DNA of 54,789 bases from an uncultured Methanosarcinales archaeon (GTDB taxonomy: Archaea > Nanobdellota > Nanobdellia > Woesearchaeales > CAZKBD01). Below, piece after piece: positions 11,629 through 43,964 of the stretch (positions are counted from its first letter, which is position 1; each line of letters begins with the position of its first letter). The DNA is taken from NCBI GenBank assembly GCA_964550945.1, contig CAZKBD010000003.1, positions 1 to 54,789 of the forward strand. The letters run 5' to 3'. A program made the position numbers and the translations under genes. The notes under the pieces are model-generated. The model searched no databases. It worked only from the letters and a program-made list of their open reading frames with translations, and was not told where the DNA came from.

Positions 11629-11791
11629 GGTAGCTGCCGAGACTTTCAACCTCTCCGCAGATTCGTTGGATTGAGCGAATGCGAAATCCAACTTAAGCGC
11701 ATTCTTTGCTCATTTCTTCTGCGAAGAAATGTTTGAACTCGGTCTAGGAGATCCACAGTCTCCAGTGCTGCCAGGTTACACCACAGCCACC
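11629..11791 (-). tRNA. tRNA-His(GTG) with encoded G-1 and an 89-nt T-loop intron at 59/60 (intron 11643-11731)
   Basis: G-1 plus GTGGCTG/CAGCTAC plus C73; anticodon arm GGAGA-CTGTGGA-TCTCC; T-arm CCGAG-TTCAAA^T-CTCGG; full BHB motif. Confidence 0.92.
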
Positions 11792-12528: not shown

Positions 12529-12642
12529 TGCTCATAGTGCTATTCTAGCTGCCAGTAAGAACTGATTGAACATGGGAGATTAGATGCTCTATTGATACTA
12601 TCCCCCTAGACCCCTACGCCTATACTACTATCTCTTTTTTAT

Positions 12643-12733
12643 ATGTCAGAAATCGCAGGTGCACGCTCTAATACTTTAGCTCAGAACAAACTAGCGATTT
12701 CTGAGCATGCTCAAAAATCTTCGATTTTTGACA
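12643..12733. repeat. Double-hairpin palindromic element, copy 2
   Basis: ATGTCAGAAATCGC...GCGATTTCTGAGCATGCTCAAAAATCTTCGATTTTTGACA; overlaps the 3' end of CDS 12691-13197. Confidence 0.85.
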
Positions 12734-17851: not shown

Positions 17852-18214
17852 AGGGCAGGAATAAGCCACCTTCTGTAGGAACCTAAAAAACCCGTAGGTT
17901 TTCTTAGGTCCTAAAATCCAGTAGATTTTAGGAACCTTGTGCTTATATAGGATAAGCGATGCTCCTTCTTAGTATTTAACTAAGCCTCTTAAATAGAGTT
18001 GCACTGGTTAGGGCTCACCGTTTCATCCTTTCCTTTAAGAACGTCTGCTTGTTATCTTGCTTTTGTCGCCAAAAGCTTCGAGAGCATCATTCTCCTTAAA
18101 GGCGGTCTCGTTTCTGAGTGGTTGCCTTCCATTACTGGAACTCGTTAAGTAACCTTTTTGAAGTGGGTGGACTTTCCTCGGTTAATGAATAACCGGTAAC
18201 TAAGCTCCTGCCCT
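17852..18214 (-). ncRNA. rnpB: RNase P RNA
   Basis: P1 AGGGCAGGA/TCCTGCCCT; CR-I GAGGAAAGTCCACC pairs with CR-V ACAGAAGGTGGCTTA (P4); AGAAA and TGAAA conserved regions. Confidence 0.92.
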
Positions 18215-25786: not shown

Positions 25787-25972
25787 ATGAAAGCTCATAA
25801 TGACAAAATAATCAAATTTGTAAGGGAAAACAGGGTTGTAACCAGCTCTGAAATTGCAAAATATCTTGATGTTTCTTGGAATACTGCTGATAAATACCTG
25901 CTTGAATTAGTTGTTGAAGGCAAGCTCCAGAGAATAAAAAAAGCAGGAGTGAATCTATGGATGGCAAAATGA
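25787..25972 (+). CDS. Small winged-helix HTH protein
   Basis: VTSSEIAKYLDVSWNTADKYLLELVVEGKL. Confidence 0.85.
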   Translation: MKAHNDKIIKFVRENRVVTSSEIAKYLDVSWNTADKYLLELVVEGKLQRIKKAGVNLWMAK

Positions 25973-27864
25973 AAAAGAGCGCGCTTTTACTGGTTTGCAT
26001 AGTTCTTTCTGCTAGTCTCACAATTGCCCTTACCTCACCGCCAACTGATTGTACAGACCCAATCATTCAGTCAACATGGGATTCAGTTTTCAAGCAACCT
26101 TCTTCAGGAATAGCCGTTTTTGCGAATGGCTCAATTGTTGGATCATGGTGCGGAAAGTATTTTGCATACAAGCATGTTGGTGCTGCAACTTATATCTTGT
26201 TCGGGCATACTGAACTTATAACTAGCTCTGGAAATAGTTTTAATGAAACATTTATTTACGCAAGATATGCAAATCTTACTGATGATGGAAAAGATTTGGT
26301 TGATAGTATTACGAATATTAATGAAGCAGCGGAGTTATTTTTTCCAAATGGAACTGATTTTTATTATGAAAACACCAGTTTTTATGAAAATTATGTTAAT
26401 CTAAGAGGTTCAAGTTTAGCAATTGGCTATTCTACTGATGAATATAGCGCTTATTATAGATCAACCCCTGGCGCTTGGGCAGCAAGCGATCATGCTGGAA
26501 ACAGAGAATACTCATTTACTAAGAATGTGAGCAATAATGAGTATAGGATGTATGAATCTGGAACTATCAACAATAACTACACCTATGATGGGTATACTTT
26601 TTCTAAGAGGCTTTGGCCACCCCCATTAATCTGCGCTCCAAACTGGAACTGCGGCTCATGGGCAGCTTGCCTAAACAGCTCACAAAAAAGAAATTGCACA
26701 GATTCAAATAATTGCGGAAATAATGCTACTAAACCCTTTGTAACCCAAACCTGCACTTGCACTTCAAACTGGAGTTGCAGCTCCTGGGCAAATTGTTCTA
26801 ATGGCACCCAAACACGAGACTGTAATGATATGAACAATTGCGGAAATAACGCTACTAAACCATTTGTAAACCAAACCTGCTGCACTCCAAACTGGAACTG
26901 CGGCTCATGGGCAGCTTGCCTAAACAGCTCACAAAAAAGAAATTGCACAGATTCAAATAATTGCGGAAATAATGCTACTAAACCCTTTGTAACCCAAACC
27001 TGCACTTGCACTTCAAACTGGAGTTGCAGCTCCTGGGCAAATTGTTCTAATGGCACCCAAACACGAGACTGTAATGATATGAACAATTGCGGAAATAACG
27101 CTACTAAACCATTTGTAAACCAAACCTGCTGCACTCCAAACTGGAACTGCGGCTCATGGACCTTGTGCTTGAATAGCACACAGACAAGAGCATGCAATGA
27201 TAGGAATAACTGTGGAACTGCTATTGGCAGACCACCTCAAAACCAATCATGCGCACAAAATGAATGCGCATCTAATTCTGACTGTGATTCTGGAGAAGCA
27301 TGTTCTGATAATGAATGTGTCGCAGCCTCACTCAGCCCAAAACGATTTAATGTTTTGTGGCTTTTTGCCCTGCCAATTCCTCTTGCAGTAGTTATCCTAA
27401 TAGTATTCAAAAATCAATTGTTTGGAGCCAGCTTCGAACCTAAGAGATATCGCCCTGCCCCACCTCAACAACCTAGGAGGGCGCAATGGCCCACCCAAGC
27501 GCCATATCCAAGGCCTATCCCCTTAACTCAATCAGTTAGGCCGTATTCAAGCGCTACAAGACACTCAATAAATCAAGCGCAATATCAAAAACTTCAGGCA
27601 GCAAAAGAGGTCAAAGAAGCTTTTGCTCAAGCATTTGGGCCGACAAAGGCACCAACACAAACAAAAGAAAATAGTATACCTATTCCACAAGAGATAAACA
27701 TCCCTCAAGTATTTAAGCCATGCCCAAAGCCAAGAATAGAAGATAAGGTTATCAAATTATCCAGGCCCAAAACCCTAAAAAAAACCAAGTATACTCTTAC
27801 ACAAATATACAAACCATCAGAGCCCAAAGACACCTTTGACAAGCTTAGAGAATTGTACCAATAA
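25969..27864 (+). CDS. Surface protein with Cys/Trp tandem repeats, TM anchor and Pro-rich cytoplasmic tail
   Basis: Signal peptide; repeats C.PNW.C.SW..C....Q.R.C.D.NNCG (TSP1-like); TM at ~aa 465-485. Confidence 0.85.
   Translation: MKKSALLLVCIVLSASLTIALTSPPTDCTDPIIQSTWDSVFKQPSSGIAVFANGSIVGSWCGKYFAYKHVGAATYILFGHTELITSSGNSFNETFIYARYANLTDDGKDLVDSITNINEAAELFFPNGTDFYYENTSFYENYVNLRGSSLAIGYSTDEYSAYYRSTPGAWAASDHAGNREYSFTKNVSNNEYRMYESGTINNNYTYDGYTFSKRLWPPPLICAPNWNCGSWAACLNSSQKRNCTDSNNCGNNATKPFVTQTCTCTSNWSCSSWANCSNGTQTRDCNDMNNCGNNATKPFVNQTCCTPNWNCGSWAACLNSSQKRNCTDSNNCGNNATKPFVTQTCTCTSNWSCSSWANCSNGTQTRDCNDMNNCGNNATKPFVNQTCCTPNWNCGSWTLCLNSTQTRACNDRNNCGTAIGRPPQNQSCAQNECASNSDCDSGEACSDNECVAASLSPKRFNVLWLFALPIPLAVVILIVFKNQLFGASFEPKRYRPAPPQQPRRAQWPTQAPYPRPIPLTQSVRPYSSATRHSINQAQYQKLQAAKEVKEAFAQAFGPTKAPTQTKENSIPIPQEINIPQVFKPCPKPRIEDKVIKLSRPKTLKKTKYTLTQIYKPSEPKDTFDKLRELYQ
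26636..27159 (+). repeat. 249-bp tandem repeat (2 full copies plus a partial third)
   Basis: CTCCAAACTGGAACTGCGGCTCATGG at 26636, 26885 and 27134; copies appear identical. Confidence 0.9.
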
Positions 27865-31329: not shown

Positions 31330-31488
31330 ATGAAATGCGCAATATGCTCTAAAAAAATTGAAGAGACTTTCCTCAAGAAGATTGTGGGCACTTACATCAA
31401 GGACAAAAACAGGAAAAAGCAGGCTGTCTGCTTCGAATGCCAGAAGAAGTTTCCTAACAAAGAAGATTTGATTGCTAATATAAAATGA
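31330..31488 (+). CDS. Small zinc-finger protein (52 aa, not in ORF track)
   Basis: MKCAICSKKIEETFLKKIVGTYIKDKNRKKQAVCFECQKK...; two CxxC; TTTTATAAA upstream. Confidence 0.75.
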   Translation: MKCAICSKKIEETFLKKIVGTYIKDKNRKKQAVCFECQKKFPNKEDLIANIK

Positions 31489-31499
31489 TTTATTAAGCA

Positions 31500-31646
31500 G
31501 AAAACGCCGACAACAATGGCGAGGACGAGGCAGGGGTTGTCCCGTGACATGCGAGTGAGCTCGTTCGAGAGCGAACTCGCTCACAAGTCACTGGGTGCCG
31601 AGTAGGTCGAAGACCGTCCGAAGCCATTTTTGTTGTTGGCGTTTTT
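31500..31646 (+). other. GC-rich multi-stem structured element (ncRNA or ssDNA repeat)
   Basis: Closing stem AAAACGCCGACAAC-AATGGC/GCCATT-GTTGTTGGCGTTTT; inner GGAC/GTCC, GGCA/TGCC, GTGAC/GTCAC and GGTC-GAA-GACC. Confidence 0.75.
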
Positions 31647-31670
31647 ACGGAATAATACCTTAATAAAGAT

Positions 31671-31743
31671 GCCCCCGTAGCTTAGCCAGCAAAGCGCGAG
31701 TTTCGTAAACTCGAGATCGAGGGTGCAAATCCCTTCGGGGGCT
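31671..31743 (+). tRNA. tRNA-Thr(CGT)
   Basis: GCCCCCG/CGGGGGC+T; anticodon arm CGAGT-TTCGTAA-ACTCG; T-arm GAGGG-TGCAAAT-CCCTT. Confidence 0.88.
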
Positions 31744-43215: not shown

Positions 43216-43964
43216 ATGCCACATTATTATTCAGAGCAACAAACATCGAGGTTCATTCCAAAGAAAATCAACGCTAGACTAATGGGGGTTTCTTTTGAAT
43301 TCTACACTTCTTCAGGAGTTTTTTCAAAGAAAAAGATAGACAAGGGAACTGTTTTGCTGGCAAATGAGATGATAGTAAAAAAAGATGCATTTGTATTGGA
43401 TATTGGAACGGGCATTGGTGTTCTTGGGATAACAGCAGCAAAACTATTCCCAGAAACAACTGTGTTGATGACCGATGTGAATAAAAGGGCAGTAAAATTA
43501 GCTGATATGAATCTTGAGCTTAATCTAATAGCTAATGCTGAAGCAAGAAATTCAAACCTTTACGGGAATATCAAAGAGAAATTTGATGTGATATTAACAA
43601 ATCCTCCGCAGACAGCTGGCAAAGACATATGCTTTAAAATAATTGAAGGGGCTAAAGAGCATCTAAATAAAAATGGATTGCTTGAATTAGTTGCGCGGCA
43701 CAATAAAGGGGGAAAAGAGCTGGAGAAAAAGATGAANNNNNNNNNNNNNNNNNNNNNNNNNNNNNNNNNNNNNNNNNNNNNNNNNNNNNNNNNNNNNNNN
43801 NNNNNNNNNNNNNNNNNNNNNNNNNNNNNNNNNNNNTTGAATTAGTTGCGCGGCACAATAAAGGGGGAAAAGAGCTGGAGAAAAAGATGAACGCTGTTTT
43901 TGGAAATGTTAAAGAGATAGCAAAGAAATCAGGATATAGGGTTTATGTTTCTAAACTTCTCTAA
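43216..43964 (+). CDS. RsmC-like small SAM-dependent methyltransferase (spans an artefactual gap)
   Basis: GVFSKKKIDKGT, LDIGTGIG, TNPP; after collapsing the duplicated gap flanks it ends KKSGYRVYVSKLL*. Confidence 0.88.

What the first reader, a model, noticed from the sequence alone, without database searches (positions are those of the whole stretch)
31500..31646. Unassigned ~147-nt highly structured GC-rich element upstream of tRNA-Thr
Seen: in an AT-rich genome, a ~20-bp closing stem with G-T wobbles on the + strand, then a GA/GAA internal loop, GGAC/GTCC, a junction containing GAGTA and GGTC-GAA-GACC, and a long arm (GGCA/TGCC, CCC/GGG, GTGAC/GTCAC). The arm ends in a bistable tip (GCGAG/CTCGC versus GTGAGC/GCTCAC). 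It lacks SRP, hammerhead and C/D motifs. Inference: a novel ncRNA co-transcribed with the Zn-finger gene and tRNA, or a second class of mobile palindromic element with a nested insert.
Basis: partly seen in the sequence, partly recalled or inferred. Interest (0 to 1): 0.7.

Follow-up and report, generated by a model that had tools for sequence, protein, structure and literature searches.

The report
DNA-folding three-armed repeat of Woesearchaeota
This GC-rich stretch is not a small-RNA gene of this locus but one copy of an uncatalogued three-armed repeat scattered between the genes of tiny Woesearchaeota archaea; its loops look built to fold as single-stranded DNA, and what copies it is still unknown.

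Summary
The structure is real (z -6.9) and matches no Rfam family. It is one of about 17 family copies in this genome, found in 36 of 151 same-order genomes, beside unrelated genes, without significant strand bias. Here it is an insertion: the Zn-finger gene and tRNA-Thr are 182 nt apart, mostly 1-38 nt in relatives. All helices covary. The long arm is a separate palindromic module nested in the cap.

New here: arm tips are C(GNA)G triloops (70 of 148; GNRA 1), whereas host RNase P RNAs have none (0 of 232; GNRA 67); a mirror-repeat covariation suggests base triples (237 of 239); doublets are only 5'-to-5' (29:0:0); three circularly permuted copies exist. Best reading: a non-autonomous repeat folding as single-stranded DNA, REP/REPIN-like in behaviour but not a REP. 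No mobiliser was found. An RNA-level element remains possible. The scan noted what is probably this family in other genomes before.

The parts
31489..31667 (+). whole inserted, self-complementary unit (outer 9-bp inverted repeat to outer 9-bp inverted repeat); exact insertion ends not determined
   Evidence: fold of 31489-31668; orthologous spacer mostly 1-38 nt in relatives
31489..31497 (+). outer inverted repeat, left arm (pairs with 31659-31667)
   Evidence: sequence, fold; similar AT-rich flanking repeats in four cap-less copies of this genome, not family-wide
31500..31515 (+). P0, 5' strand: copy-variable outer stem, pairs with 31631-31646
   Evidence: all 8 modelled pairs show two-sided changes
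31516..31524 (+). P1 and P2, 5' strand (with GA/GAA loop in this subfamily; four pairs plus a 1-nt 3' bulge in most others)
   Evidence: covariation
31525..31531 (+). P3, 5' strand (7 pairs with 31597-31603, including tandem G.A, replaced by Watson-Crick pairs in some copies)
31532..31543 (+). cap, 5' half: purine strand a1-a5, linker, and CCC that pairs with GGG at 31593-31595; a1-a3 mirror the purine strand (candidate base triples)
31544..31592 (+). nested palindromic insert (the long arm with the bistable tip); replaces the usual 5-nt N-T-N-C-G loop
   Evidence: separate repeat in run contigs; other hosts and reversed orientation
31593..31604 (+). cap 3' half, invariant bulged T (31596), P3 3' strand and junction A (31604)
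31605..31615 (+). P4 hairpin with C(GAA)G triloop; length-variable in the family
31616..31646 (+). junction GT, P2/P1 3' strands, 3-nt bulge (31628-31630) and P0 3' strand
31659..31667 (+). outer inverted repeat, right arm
31330..31488 (+). host gene: 52-aa Cys-motif (Zn-finger-like) protein, conserved in the order, no Pfam match; not part of the element
   Evidence: (54 of 61 genomes)
31671..31743 (+). host gene: tRNA-Thr(CGT); not part of the element

Best explanation
The element is one copy of a non-coding, non-autonomous dispersed repeat of Woesearchaeota whose selected property is a strand-specific fold of single-stranded DNA: long outer stem, two one-sided bulges, a three-way junction (A / GT), a G-rich cap that may form 2-4 purine base triples, and a free arm ending in DNA mini-hairpin loops. 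Shown: the copies, the covarying fold, the insertion at this site, the loop statistics, the 5'-to-5' doublets, the permuted copies, the exchangeable arm. Inferred: the strand folds when exposed (replication, repair); a protein acting in trans recognises junction and bulges, as HUH transposases do with REP or IS200/IS605 hairpins, and copies or excises it through a single-stranded, possibly circular, intermediate (which would explain permuted copies and lack of target duplication); new copies survive in intergenic gaps; copies then exchange arms by recombination and pick up other palindromic modules. The enzyme is not identified.
For: Multicopy and patchy: 9 full capped copies, 3 partial or decayed, 3 full and 2 partial cap-less copies here; 36 of 151 same-order genomes, 1-17 matches. 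Empty orthologous site, also in a genome with 17 copies elsewhere. No recurrent neighbour among 385 flanking proteins. No significant sense bias in co-oriented gene pairs: 25 vs 16 (p 0.21), 12 vs 11 (overlapping sets). Fold under selection: 96% of cells paired, 22 of 26 pairs with two-sided changes, 0 of 500 shuffles, slid controls 35-56%; one strand preferred (G-T 89, G.A 310, A.C 21 of 2772 cells). DNA-type loops: C(GNA)G 70, GNRA 1, UNCG 0 of 148 arm tips, against 0, 67 and 3 of 232 loops in 30 RNase P RNAs of the same order; GCGNAGC mini-hairpins are far more stable as DNA than RNA (PMC13037366). Mirror covariation a2 = a19 in 237 of 239 caps, a1 with a10-a20 in 146 of 154; purine-motif triplexes are reported not to form in RNA (PMC4666352). 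29 doublets 5'-to-5', 0 tail-to-tail, 0 tandem among 275 cores. No target-site duplication in 116 singlets.
Against: No mobiliser: Y1 transposase in 11 of 22 element-bearing vs 6 of 30 element-free genomes but not found in several of the richest near-complete ones, and no core within about 1.5 kb of 34 Y1 or own RT loci; XerA-like recombinase is near-universal (43 of 54) with a core beside only 1 of 30 fetched loci. No conserved target or guide motif at the ends. The cap loop N-T-N-C-G reads equally well as an RNA UNCG-type loop, and G-T wobbles, tandem G.A pairs and circular permutation are all typical of structured RNAs. Arm sequences are related by descent, so the loop counts are not independent events; the triple rests on three allele sets and only 2-4 triads, in a strand order that is not one of the four simple intrastrand classes. 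Cap-less members exist, so the cap is not required for spread. No close strain pair with a filled and an empty site was obtained.
Confidence: 0.58

Rival explanations
1. It acts as RNA: a multicopy structured RNA, possibly a small self-cleaving ribozyme or a SINE-like element copied by a reverse transcriptase, transcribed from read-through or antisense transcription.
For: Three circularly permuted copies, as known for hammerhead and twister classes (recalled); near-invariant unpaired bases at the junction and cap; UNCG-like cap loop; G-T over A.C excess; reverse transcriptases in 10 of 22 element-bearing vs 3 of 30 element-free genomes.
Against: RNA tetraloops almost absent from the free arm (1 of 148); no Rfam ribozyme match even at loose E-values; no fixed upstream promoter signal in base profiles; no sense bias; RT not found in several of the richest genomes and only one weak partial core in 20 RT loci; no target duplication.
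Confidence: 0.24
2. It is a host-used single-stranded-DNA signal (for example a priming, replication-restart or recombination site), with 5'-to-5' doublets serving both strands, and spreads secondarily by gene conversion.
For: DNA mini-hairpins mark primase and promoter sites in phage G4, RSF1010 ssiA and N4 (PMC13037366); doublets put one fold on each strand pointing outward; three copies lie about 150-190 nt upstream of a XerA-like gene on the same strand (one by coordinates).
Against: Not found in 115 of 151 same-order genomes searched, including single-contig ones; copy number varies widely; same-contig copies occur in both orientations.
Confidence: 0.11
3. It is a cis-acting RNA of this operon (processing, termination or stability signal for the Zn-finger/tRNA-Thr transcript).
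For: It lies on the transcribed strand, 11 nt after the stop codon, and ends in a T run; it will be read through.
Against: The gene pair is conserved without it (14 of 29 relatives have tRNA-Thr(CGT) within 88 nt or overlapping the stop, none with a core in that spacer); other copies lie beside unrelated genes on both strands; not called terminator-like.
Confidence: 0.04
4. Covariation is a mutational by-product: template-switch correction of quasi-palindromes keeps stems complementary with no selected function.
For: Outer stems are copy-specific yet paired; in compact doublets the outer stem of one partner is the antisense of the other's inner stem; the insert occurs flipped.
Against: One-sided bulges, tandem G.A pairs, junction bases and mirror (non-complementary) covariation persist across many genomes; such correction would erase them.
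Confidence: 0.03

Closest known systems
REP / REPIN / BIME elements and RAYT (TnpA-REP) Y1 transposases (PMC3733652, PMC6006769; passages read)
   Same: Intergenic, multicopy, patchy, palindromic, non-coding; singlets and inverted doublets with one orientation favoured; GTAG-like tetramer just 5' of a hairpin and CGTC just 3' of it; no target duplication.
   Different: About 95-130 nt with a covarying three-way junction, not a 20-40-nt hairpin; the GTAG bases are paired inside P3 and vary (GTAG, GCAG, GGAG, ATAG); no Y1 gene beside it; archaeal.
IS200/IS605 ends and their non-autonomous derivatives (PMC6006769, passages; details partly recalled)
   Same: Strand-specific subterminal DNA folds with bulged bases; no target duplication; a circular single-stranded intermediate would fit the permuted copies.
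   Different: No conserved target tetra/pentanucleotide found; no similarity to the surroundings of Y1 genes.
BoxC / PIT / TM intrastrand triplex repeats of E. coli (PMC4666352, passages)
   Same: Dispersed intergenic repeat with a mirror-repeat purine tract that may fold into an intrastrand DNA triplex; no link to neighbouring gene orientation.
   Different: Here only 2-4 triads, in the order third strand - pyrimidine - purine with antiparallel register, embedded in a larger three-way junction and supported by covariation only.
Small self-cleaving ribozymes (hammerhead, twister, twister-sister, pistol, hatchet, HDV-like)
   Same: Three-armed fold, conserved junction bases, variable outer arms, circular permutation, many copies per genome.
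   Different: No Rfam match; catalytic motifs not seen; arm loops are DNA-type triloops.
Integron attC sites (recalled)
   Same: Single-strand DNA hairpin with one-sided extrahelical bases and a variable terminal structure; some copies have AAC...GTT in the outer stem.
   Different: AAC/GTT not conserved family-wide; no cassette arrays; copies among housekeeping genes; outer ends complementary within each copy.

Membership tests
REP/REPIN | multicopy intergenic palindrome, singly or as inverted doublets | tested here: met
REP/REPIN | unpaired GTAG/GTGG tetranucleotide 0-2 nt 5' of a simple hairpin (PMC6006769) | tested here: not met
   GTAG-like bases precede P4 but the first two pair and covary with the P3 5' strand, the last G pairs in P4
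REP/REPIN | cognate RAYT gene flanked by the repeat | tested here: not met
   no core in 30 fetched Y1 loci of relatives or the 2 own Y1 loci; Y1 not found in several element-rich genomes; 16 further Y1 matches were not fetched
MITE | conserved terminal inverted repeats and target-site duplication | tested here: not met
   outer stem differs between subfamilies and is missing in some copies; no duplication excess in 116 singlets
IS200/IS605 derivative | insertion 3' of a conserved AT-rich tetra/pentanucleotide, no duplication | tested here: inconclusive
   no duplication (met); no conserved 5' motif family-wide, but true ends are unknown
Known ribozyme or other Rfam family | score above gathering threshold | tested here: not met
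Self-cleaving ribozyme (new class) | site-specific self-cleavage of the RNA | not testable with these tools
   needs an in vitro assay
Integron attC | RYYYAAC / GTTRRRY cores, arrays of single-gene cassettes, integrase nearby | tested here: not met
   cores not conserved; no arrays, 0 tandem pairs; recombinase rarely adjacent; motif definition recalled
Archaeal bulge-helix-bulge intron / circular RNA | two 3-nt bulges on opposite strands around a 4-bp helix | tested here: not met
   3-nt bulge (71 of the well-paired copies, 4-nt in 19) and 1-nt bulge are on the same strand; motif definition recalled
Intrastrand triplex repeat (BoxC/TM-like) | physical triplex formation | not testable with these tools
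   only mirror covariation; 2-4 triads, below the 6-nt stems of PMC4666352

The most novel reading that the evidence does not exclude
A naturally evolved, tertiary-folded single-stranded DNA element (junction, base-triple cap, permutable arms, like a ribozyme but made of DNA) that drives its own spread in DPANN archaea through a circular intermediate, either by recruiting a housekeeping enzyme rather than a dedicated transposase or by contributing to catalysis itself.
Probability: 0.12. Interest if true: 0.9.

Novelty: new variant of a known kind. Interest (0 to 1): 0.57.

Why it matters
REP-type repeats are studied almost only in bacteria, and conserved folds with covariation are by default filed as RNA. 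This family gives a quantitative case that a complex, covarying three-way junction is selected as DNA, in archaea with reduced genomes, apparently without the usual transposase. It is small enough to test with oligonucleotides. It also warns ncRNA screens against calling such elements RNA genes, and it often sits at contig ends, so it probably breaks Woesearchaeota assemblies.

Tried and rejected
Rfam at gathering and loose thresholds: nothing. 5S rRNA, SRP, tRNA-like, SAM-I, HDV-like, twister and k-turn resemblances considered by eye, none held. Viral contigs: 0 matches to the core pattern; the single match to a looser pattern was not picked up by the model. Plasmids and phages: no match. Expression: no RNA holder listed; contigs of DNA runs only. 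Mobiliser: Y1, RT and XerA-like recombinase not convincingly linked; Fisher values 0.036 and 0.008 (105) ignore kinship and genome size. DDE transposases lie beside 3 copies, one seemingly inside the IS end, too few for a rule (terminal-repeat motif within 300-400 nt of 7 of 275 cores). A flanking AT-rich inverted motif seen in this genome was not family-wide. The loose junction descriptor gave mostly noise. Phylum-level search returned hits only in the same order, but the listed genomes were all of that order, so absence elsewhere is not shown. Four bacterial-labelled and one Pacearchaeota-labelled genome hold one copy each; flanking genes of two look archaeal by eye, so misbinning is likely but untested. 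Systematic search for permuted copies recovered only 1 of the 3 seen by eye, so their number is a minimum. Literature searches finding no description of this family; the cluster database and supplements of bioRxiv 10.64898/2026.10.21.760802 could not be seen and may hold it unnamed.

Full report
Observation. Rfam has no match apart from the neighbouring tRNA-Thr and an archaeal RNase P elsewhere in the window. A 9-bp inverted repeat further out (31489-31497 / 31659-31667) closes almost the whole spacer. The host is an archaeon; relatives carrying the element are mostly titled Woesearchaeota or Nanoarchaeota, so the host is inferred to be of that group.

It is a repeat. The own genome holds 9 full capped copies, 2 partial copies at contig ends and 1 decayed copy, 3 full and 2 partial copies in which the cap is replaced by a plain hairpin, and one stand-alone cap. 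A covariance model from 13 copies found matches in 36 of 151 same-order genomes including this one, 1-17 each, with only 21 candidates scored per genome. Of the 80 titled rows, 54 read Woesearchaeota, Nanoarchaeota or Nanoarchaeia, 19 carry a Methanosarcinales label that I suspect is a submission label, 3 are other archaeal labels and 4 bacterial; those four and the Pacearchaeota-labelled genome have a single copy each.

It is an insertion here. Among 29 relatives' loci of the Zn-finger gene (the 29 best of 53 genomes with a match), 14 have an ARAGORN-called tRNA-Thr(CGT) directly downstream: 12 at 1-38 nt, one at 88 nt, one overlapping; 3 have another tRNA call and 12 no call nearby. None has a core in that spacer, against 182 nt with the element here. 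One of the empty sites is in a genome with 17 copies elsewhere. Neighbours are unrelated: among 385 flanking proteins the largest cluster covers 5 loci and is an ABC ATPase. Of 151 cores, 68 had both neighbours called: 25 sense and 16 antisense between co-oriented genes (p 0.21), 23 divergent, 4 convergent; a partly overlapping set gave 12 and 11.

Anatomy. From 154 distinct ungapped cores: variable outer stem P0; 3-nt (sometimes 4-nt) bulge on the 3' strand; P1; 1-nt bulge on the same strand, or the GA/GAA loop of the window's subfamily; P2; a three-way junction with only A and GT unpaired; a 7-pair P3 whose tandem G.A pairs are replaced by Watson-Crick pairs in some copies; a 21-nt cap; and a length-variable P4. 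On 46 model-aligned copies 96% of cells pair and 22 of 26 pairs change on both sides, with 0 of 500 shuffles reaching this and slid controls at 35-56% (the alignment was fitted to that structure). G-T and G.A (310) greatly exceed A.C, so the strand shown as + is the folding one. In the cap, a purine run on the 5' side mirrors the purine strand of the small hairpin: the triple is G/C/G or A/T/A in 237 of 239 caps with that position left free, and the next one G/C/G, A/T/A or T/G/C in 146 of 154. An alternative hairpin would need a different register for each variant, so stacked purine triples are the simpler reading, but this is inference from three allele sets.

The long arm is a guest. It replaces the 5-nt cap loop in 3 full copies here. 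Contigs of two DNA runs pile up on 31543-31592 with foreign flanks (summed depth 25 and 121 against about 3-8 beside it). Its 15-mer occurs in 3 of 201 genomes (3, 9 and 10 copies); in one genome 3 copies sit reversed in this family and 7 in other repeats with a similar cap. The statement that the arm carries a further nested palindrome rests on the unpublished genome G130, which also gives 12 of the matches, 9 and 2 of the doublets.

DNA or RNA. Folded with RNA parameters, 142 distinct P4 arms end in C(GNA)G triloops 70 times, GNRA once and UNCG never (148 loops), while 30 RNase P RNAs of the same order give 0, 67 and 3 of 232. GCGNAGC mini-hairpins are exceptionally stable as DNA and much less so as RNA, and occur at single-stranded phage and plasmid origins (PMC13037366, passages). 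Purine-motif triplexes are stated not to form in RNA (PMC4666352, passages). Against this, the cap loop fits UNCG as well as the complement of a GNA loop, arms share ancestry, and expression could not be examined.

Clues to spread. Among 275 distinct cores there are 29 doublets, all 5'-to-5', none tail-to-tail or tandem (four doublet regions were fetched on purpose, and some loci may occur in two collections). In 17 of 29 the inner stems are 4-5 nt apart and each partner's outer stem is the antisense of the other. Three copies are circularly permuted: P4 closes the element and P0 is a hairpin. No target duplication or fixed flanking motif was found in 116 singlets. No enzyme could be tied to it; three copies upstream of XerA-like genes and three beside DDE transposases are leads only.

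Comparison. It behaves like REP/REPIN repeats, including a favoured doublet orientation and GTAG/CGTC-like words (PMC3733652, PMC6006769; passages), but fails the defining free GTAG foot and RAYT linkage, so it works like a REP without being one. It is not a MITE, attC site, bulge-helix-bulge intron or catalogued ribozyme by the tests listed. Searches for a published description found none; RepRanger's text does not mention DPANN or Nanoarchaeota (PMC12306157, passages); in bioRxiv 10.64898/2026.10.21.760802 I read the outline, passages and section 2.5 without finding it, but its database and supplements were not visible. PMC3116915 was seen as a listing only. Earlier notes of this scan describe a three-armed repeat in other Woesearchaeota genomes; they give no sequence, so identity is likely but unchecked, and they are not independent support. 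Word searches of those notes for the loop, triplex and permutation features returned nothing.

Verdict. Real, uncatalogued, a new variant of the structured non-autonomous repeat kind; DNA-level folding 0.58, RNA-level 0.24, host DNA signal 0.11. Interest 0.57.

Noticed in passing
window 17852-18214 (-): Archaeal RNase P RNA with two insertions relative to the Rfam model (about 27 nt and about 87 nt near the 3' end, the latter made of palindromic hairpins).
   Followed up: partly
window about 11650-11740 and 12640-12730: Other GC-rich or long palindromic hairpins with C(GNA)G loops, apparently members of further repeat families.
   Followed up: no
window 43682-43736 and 43837-43891: Identical 55-nt direct repeat on both sides of a run of N: a scaffolding artefact.
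   Followed up: yes
window 25957-27864: 635-aa secreted-looking protein with five Cys-rich repeats, two 249-nt blocks 100% identical.
   Followed up: no
window 31330-31488: 52-aa Cys-motif protein with no Pfam match, found in 54 of 61 genomes and often directly followed by tRNA-Thr(CGT).
   Followed up: partly
L047-L050 (own contigs C146, C153): Two loci with a Y1 transposase, a target gene with variable/template repeat pair, a GAA-loop hairpin and a reverse transcriptase: diversity-generating retroelements next to IS200-type genes (DGR label from recall).
   Followed up: partly
own contigs C27:7586-7714, C28:2048-2175, C73:1447-1574, C81, C124: Near-identical cap-less copies whose 35-40-nt AT-rich flanks are only loosely alike and form imperfect inverted repeats; possible target site or true ends.
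   Followed up: partly
L155, L156, L176, L182, L188, L195 (partners upstream): A second repeat family sharing the outer stem and the TAGG-hairpin-CCG junction but with a different core, lying 5'-to-5' with this family.
   Followed up: no
L373:1346 region: A copy lies between a DDE transposase stop codon and what looks like the IS right end, so it may hitchhike in an insertion sequence.
   Followed up: partly
L073:275-1460: XerA/IntI-like recombinase gene flanked by a normal copy upstream and a permuted copy downstream, both on the same strand.
   Followed up: partly
L042 (own contig C137:1-1300): Cluster of several different palindromic elements around a small toxin-antitoxin-like gene pair, with a decayed copy of this family.
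   Followed up: no
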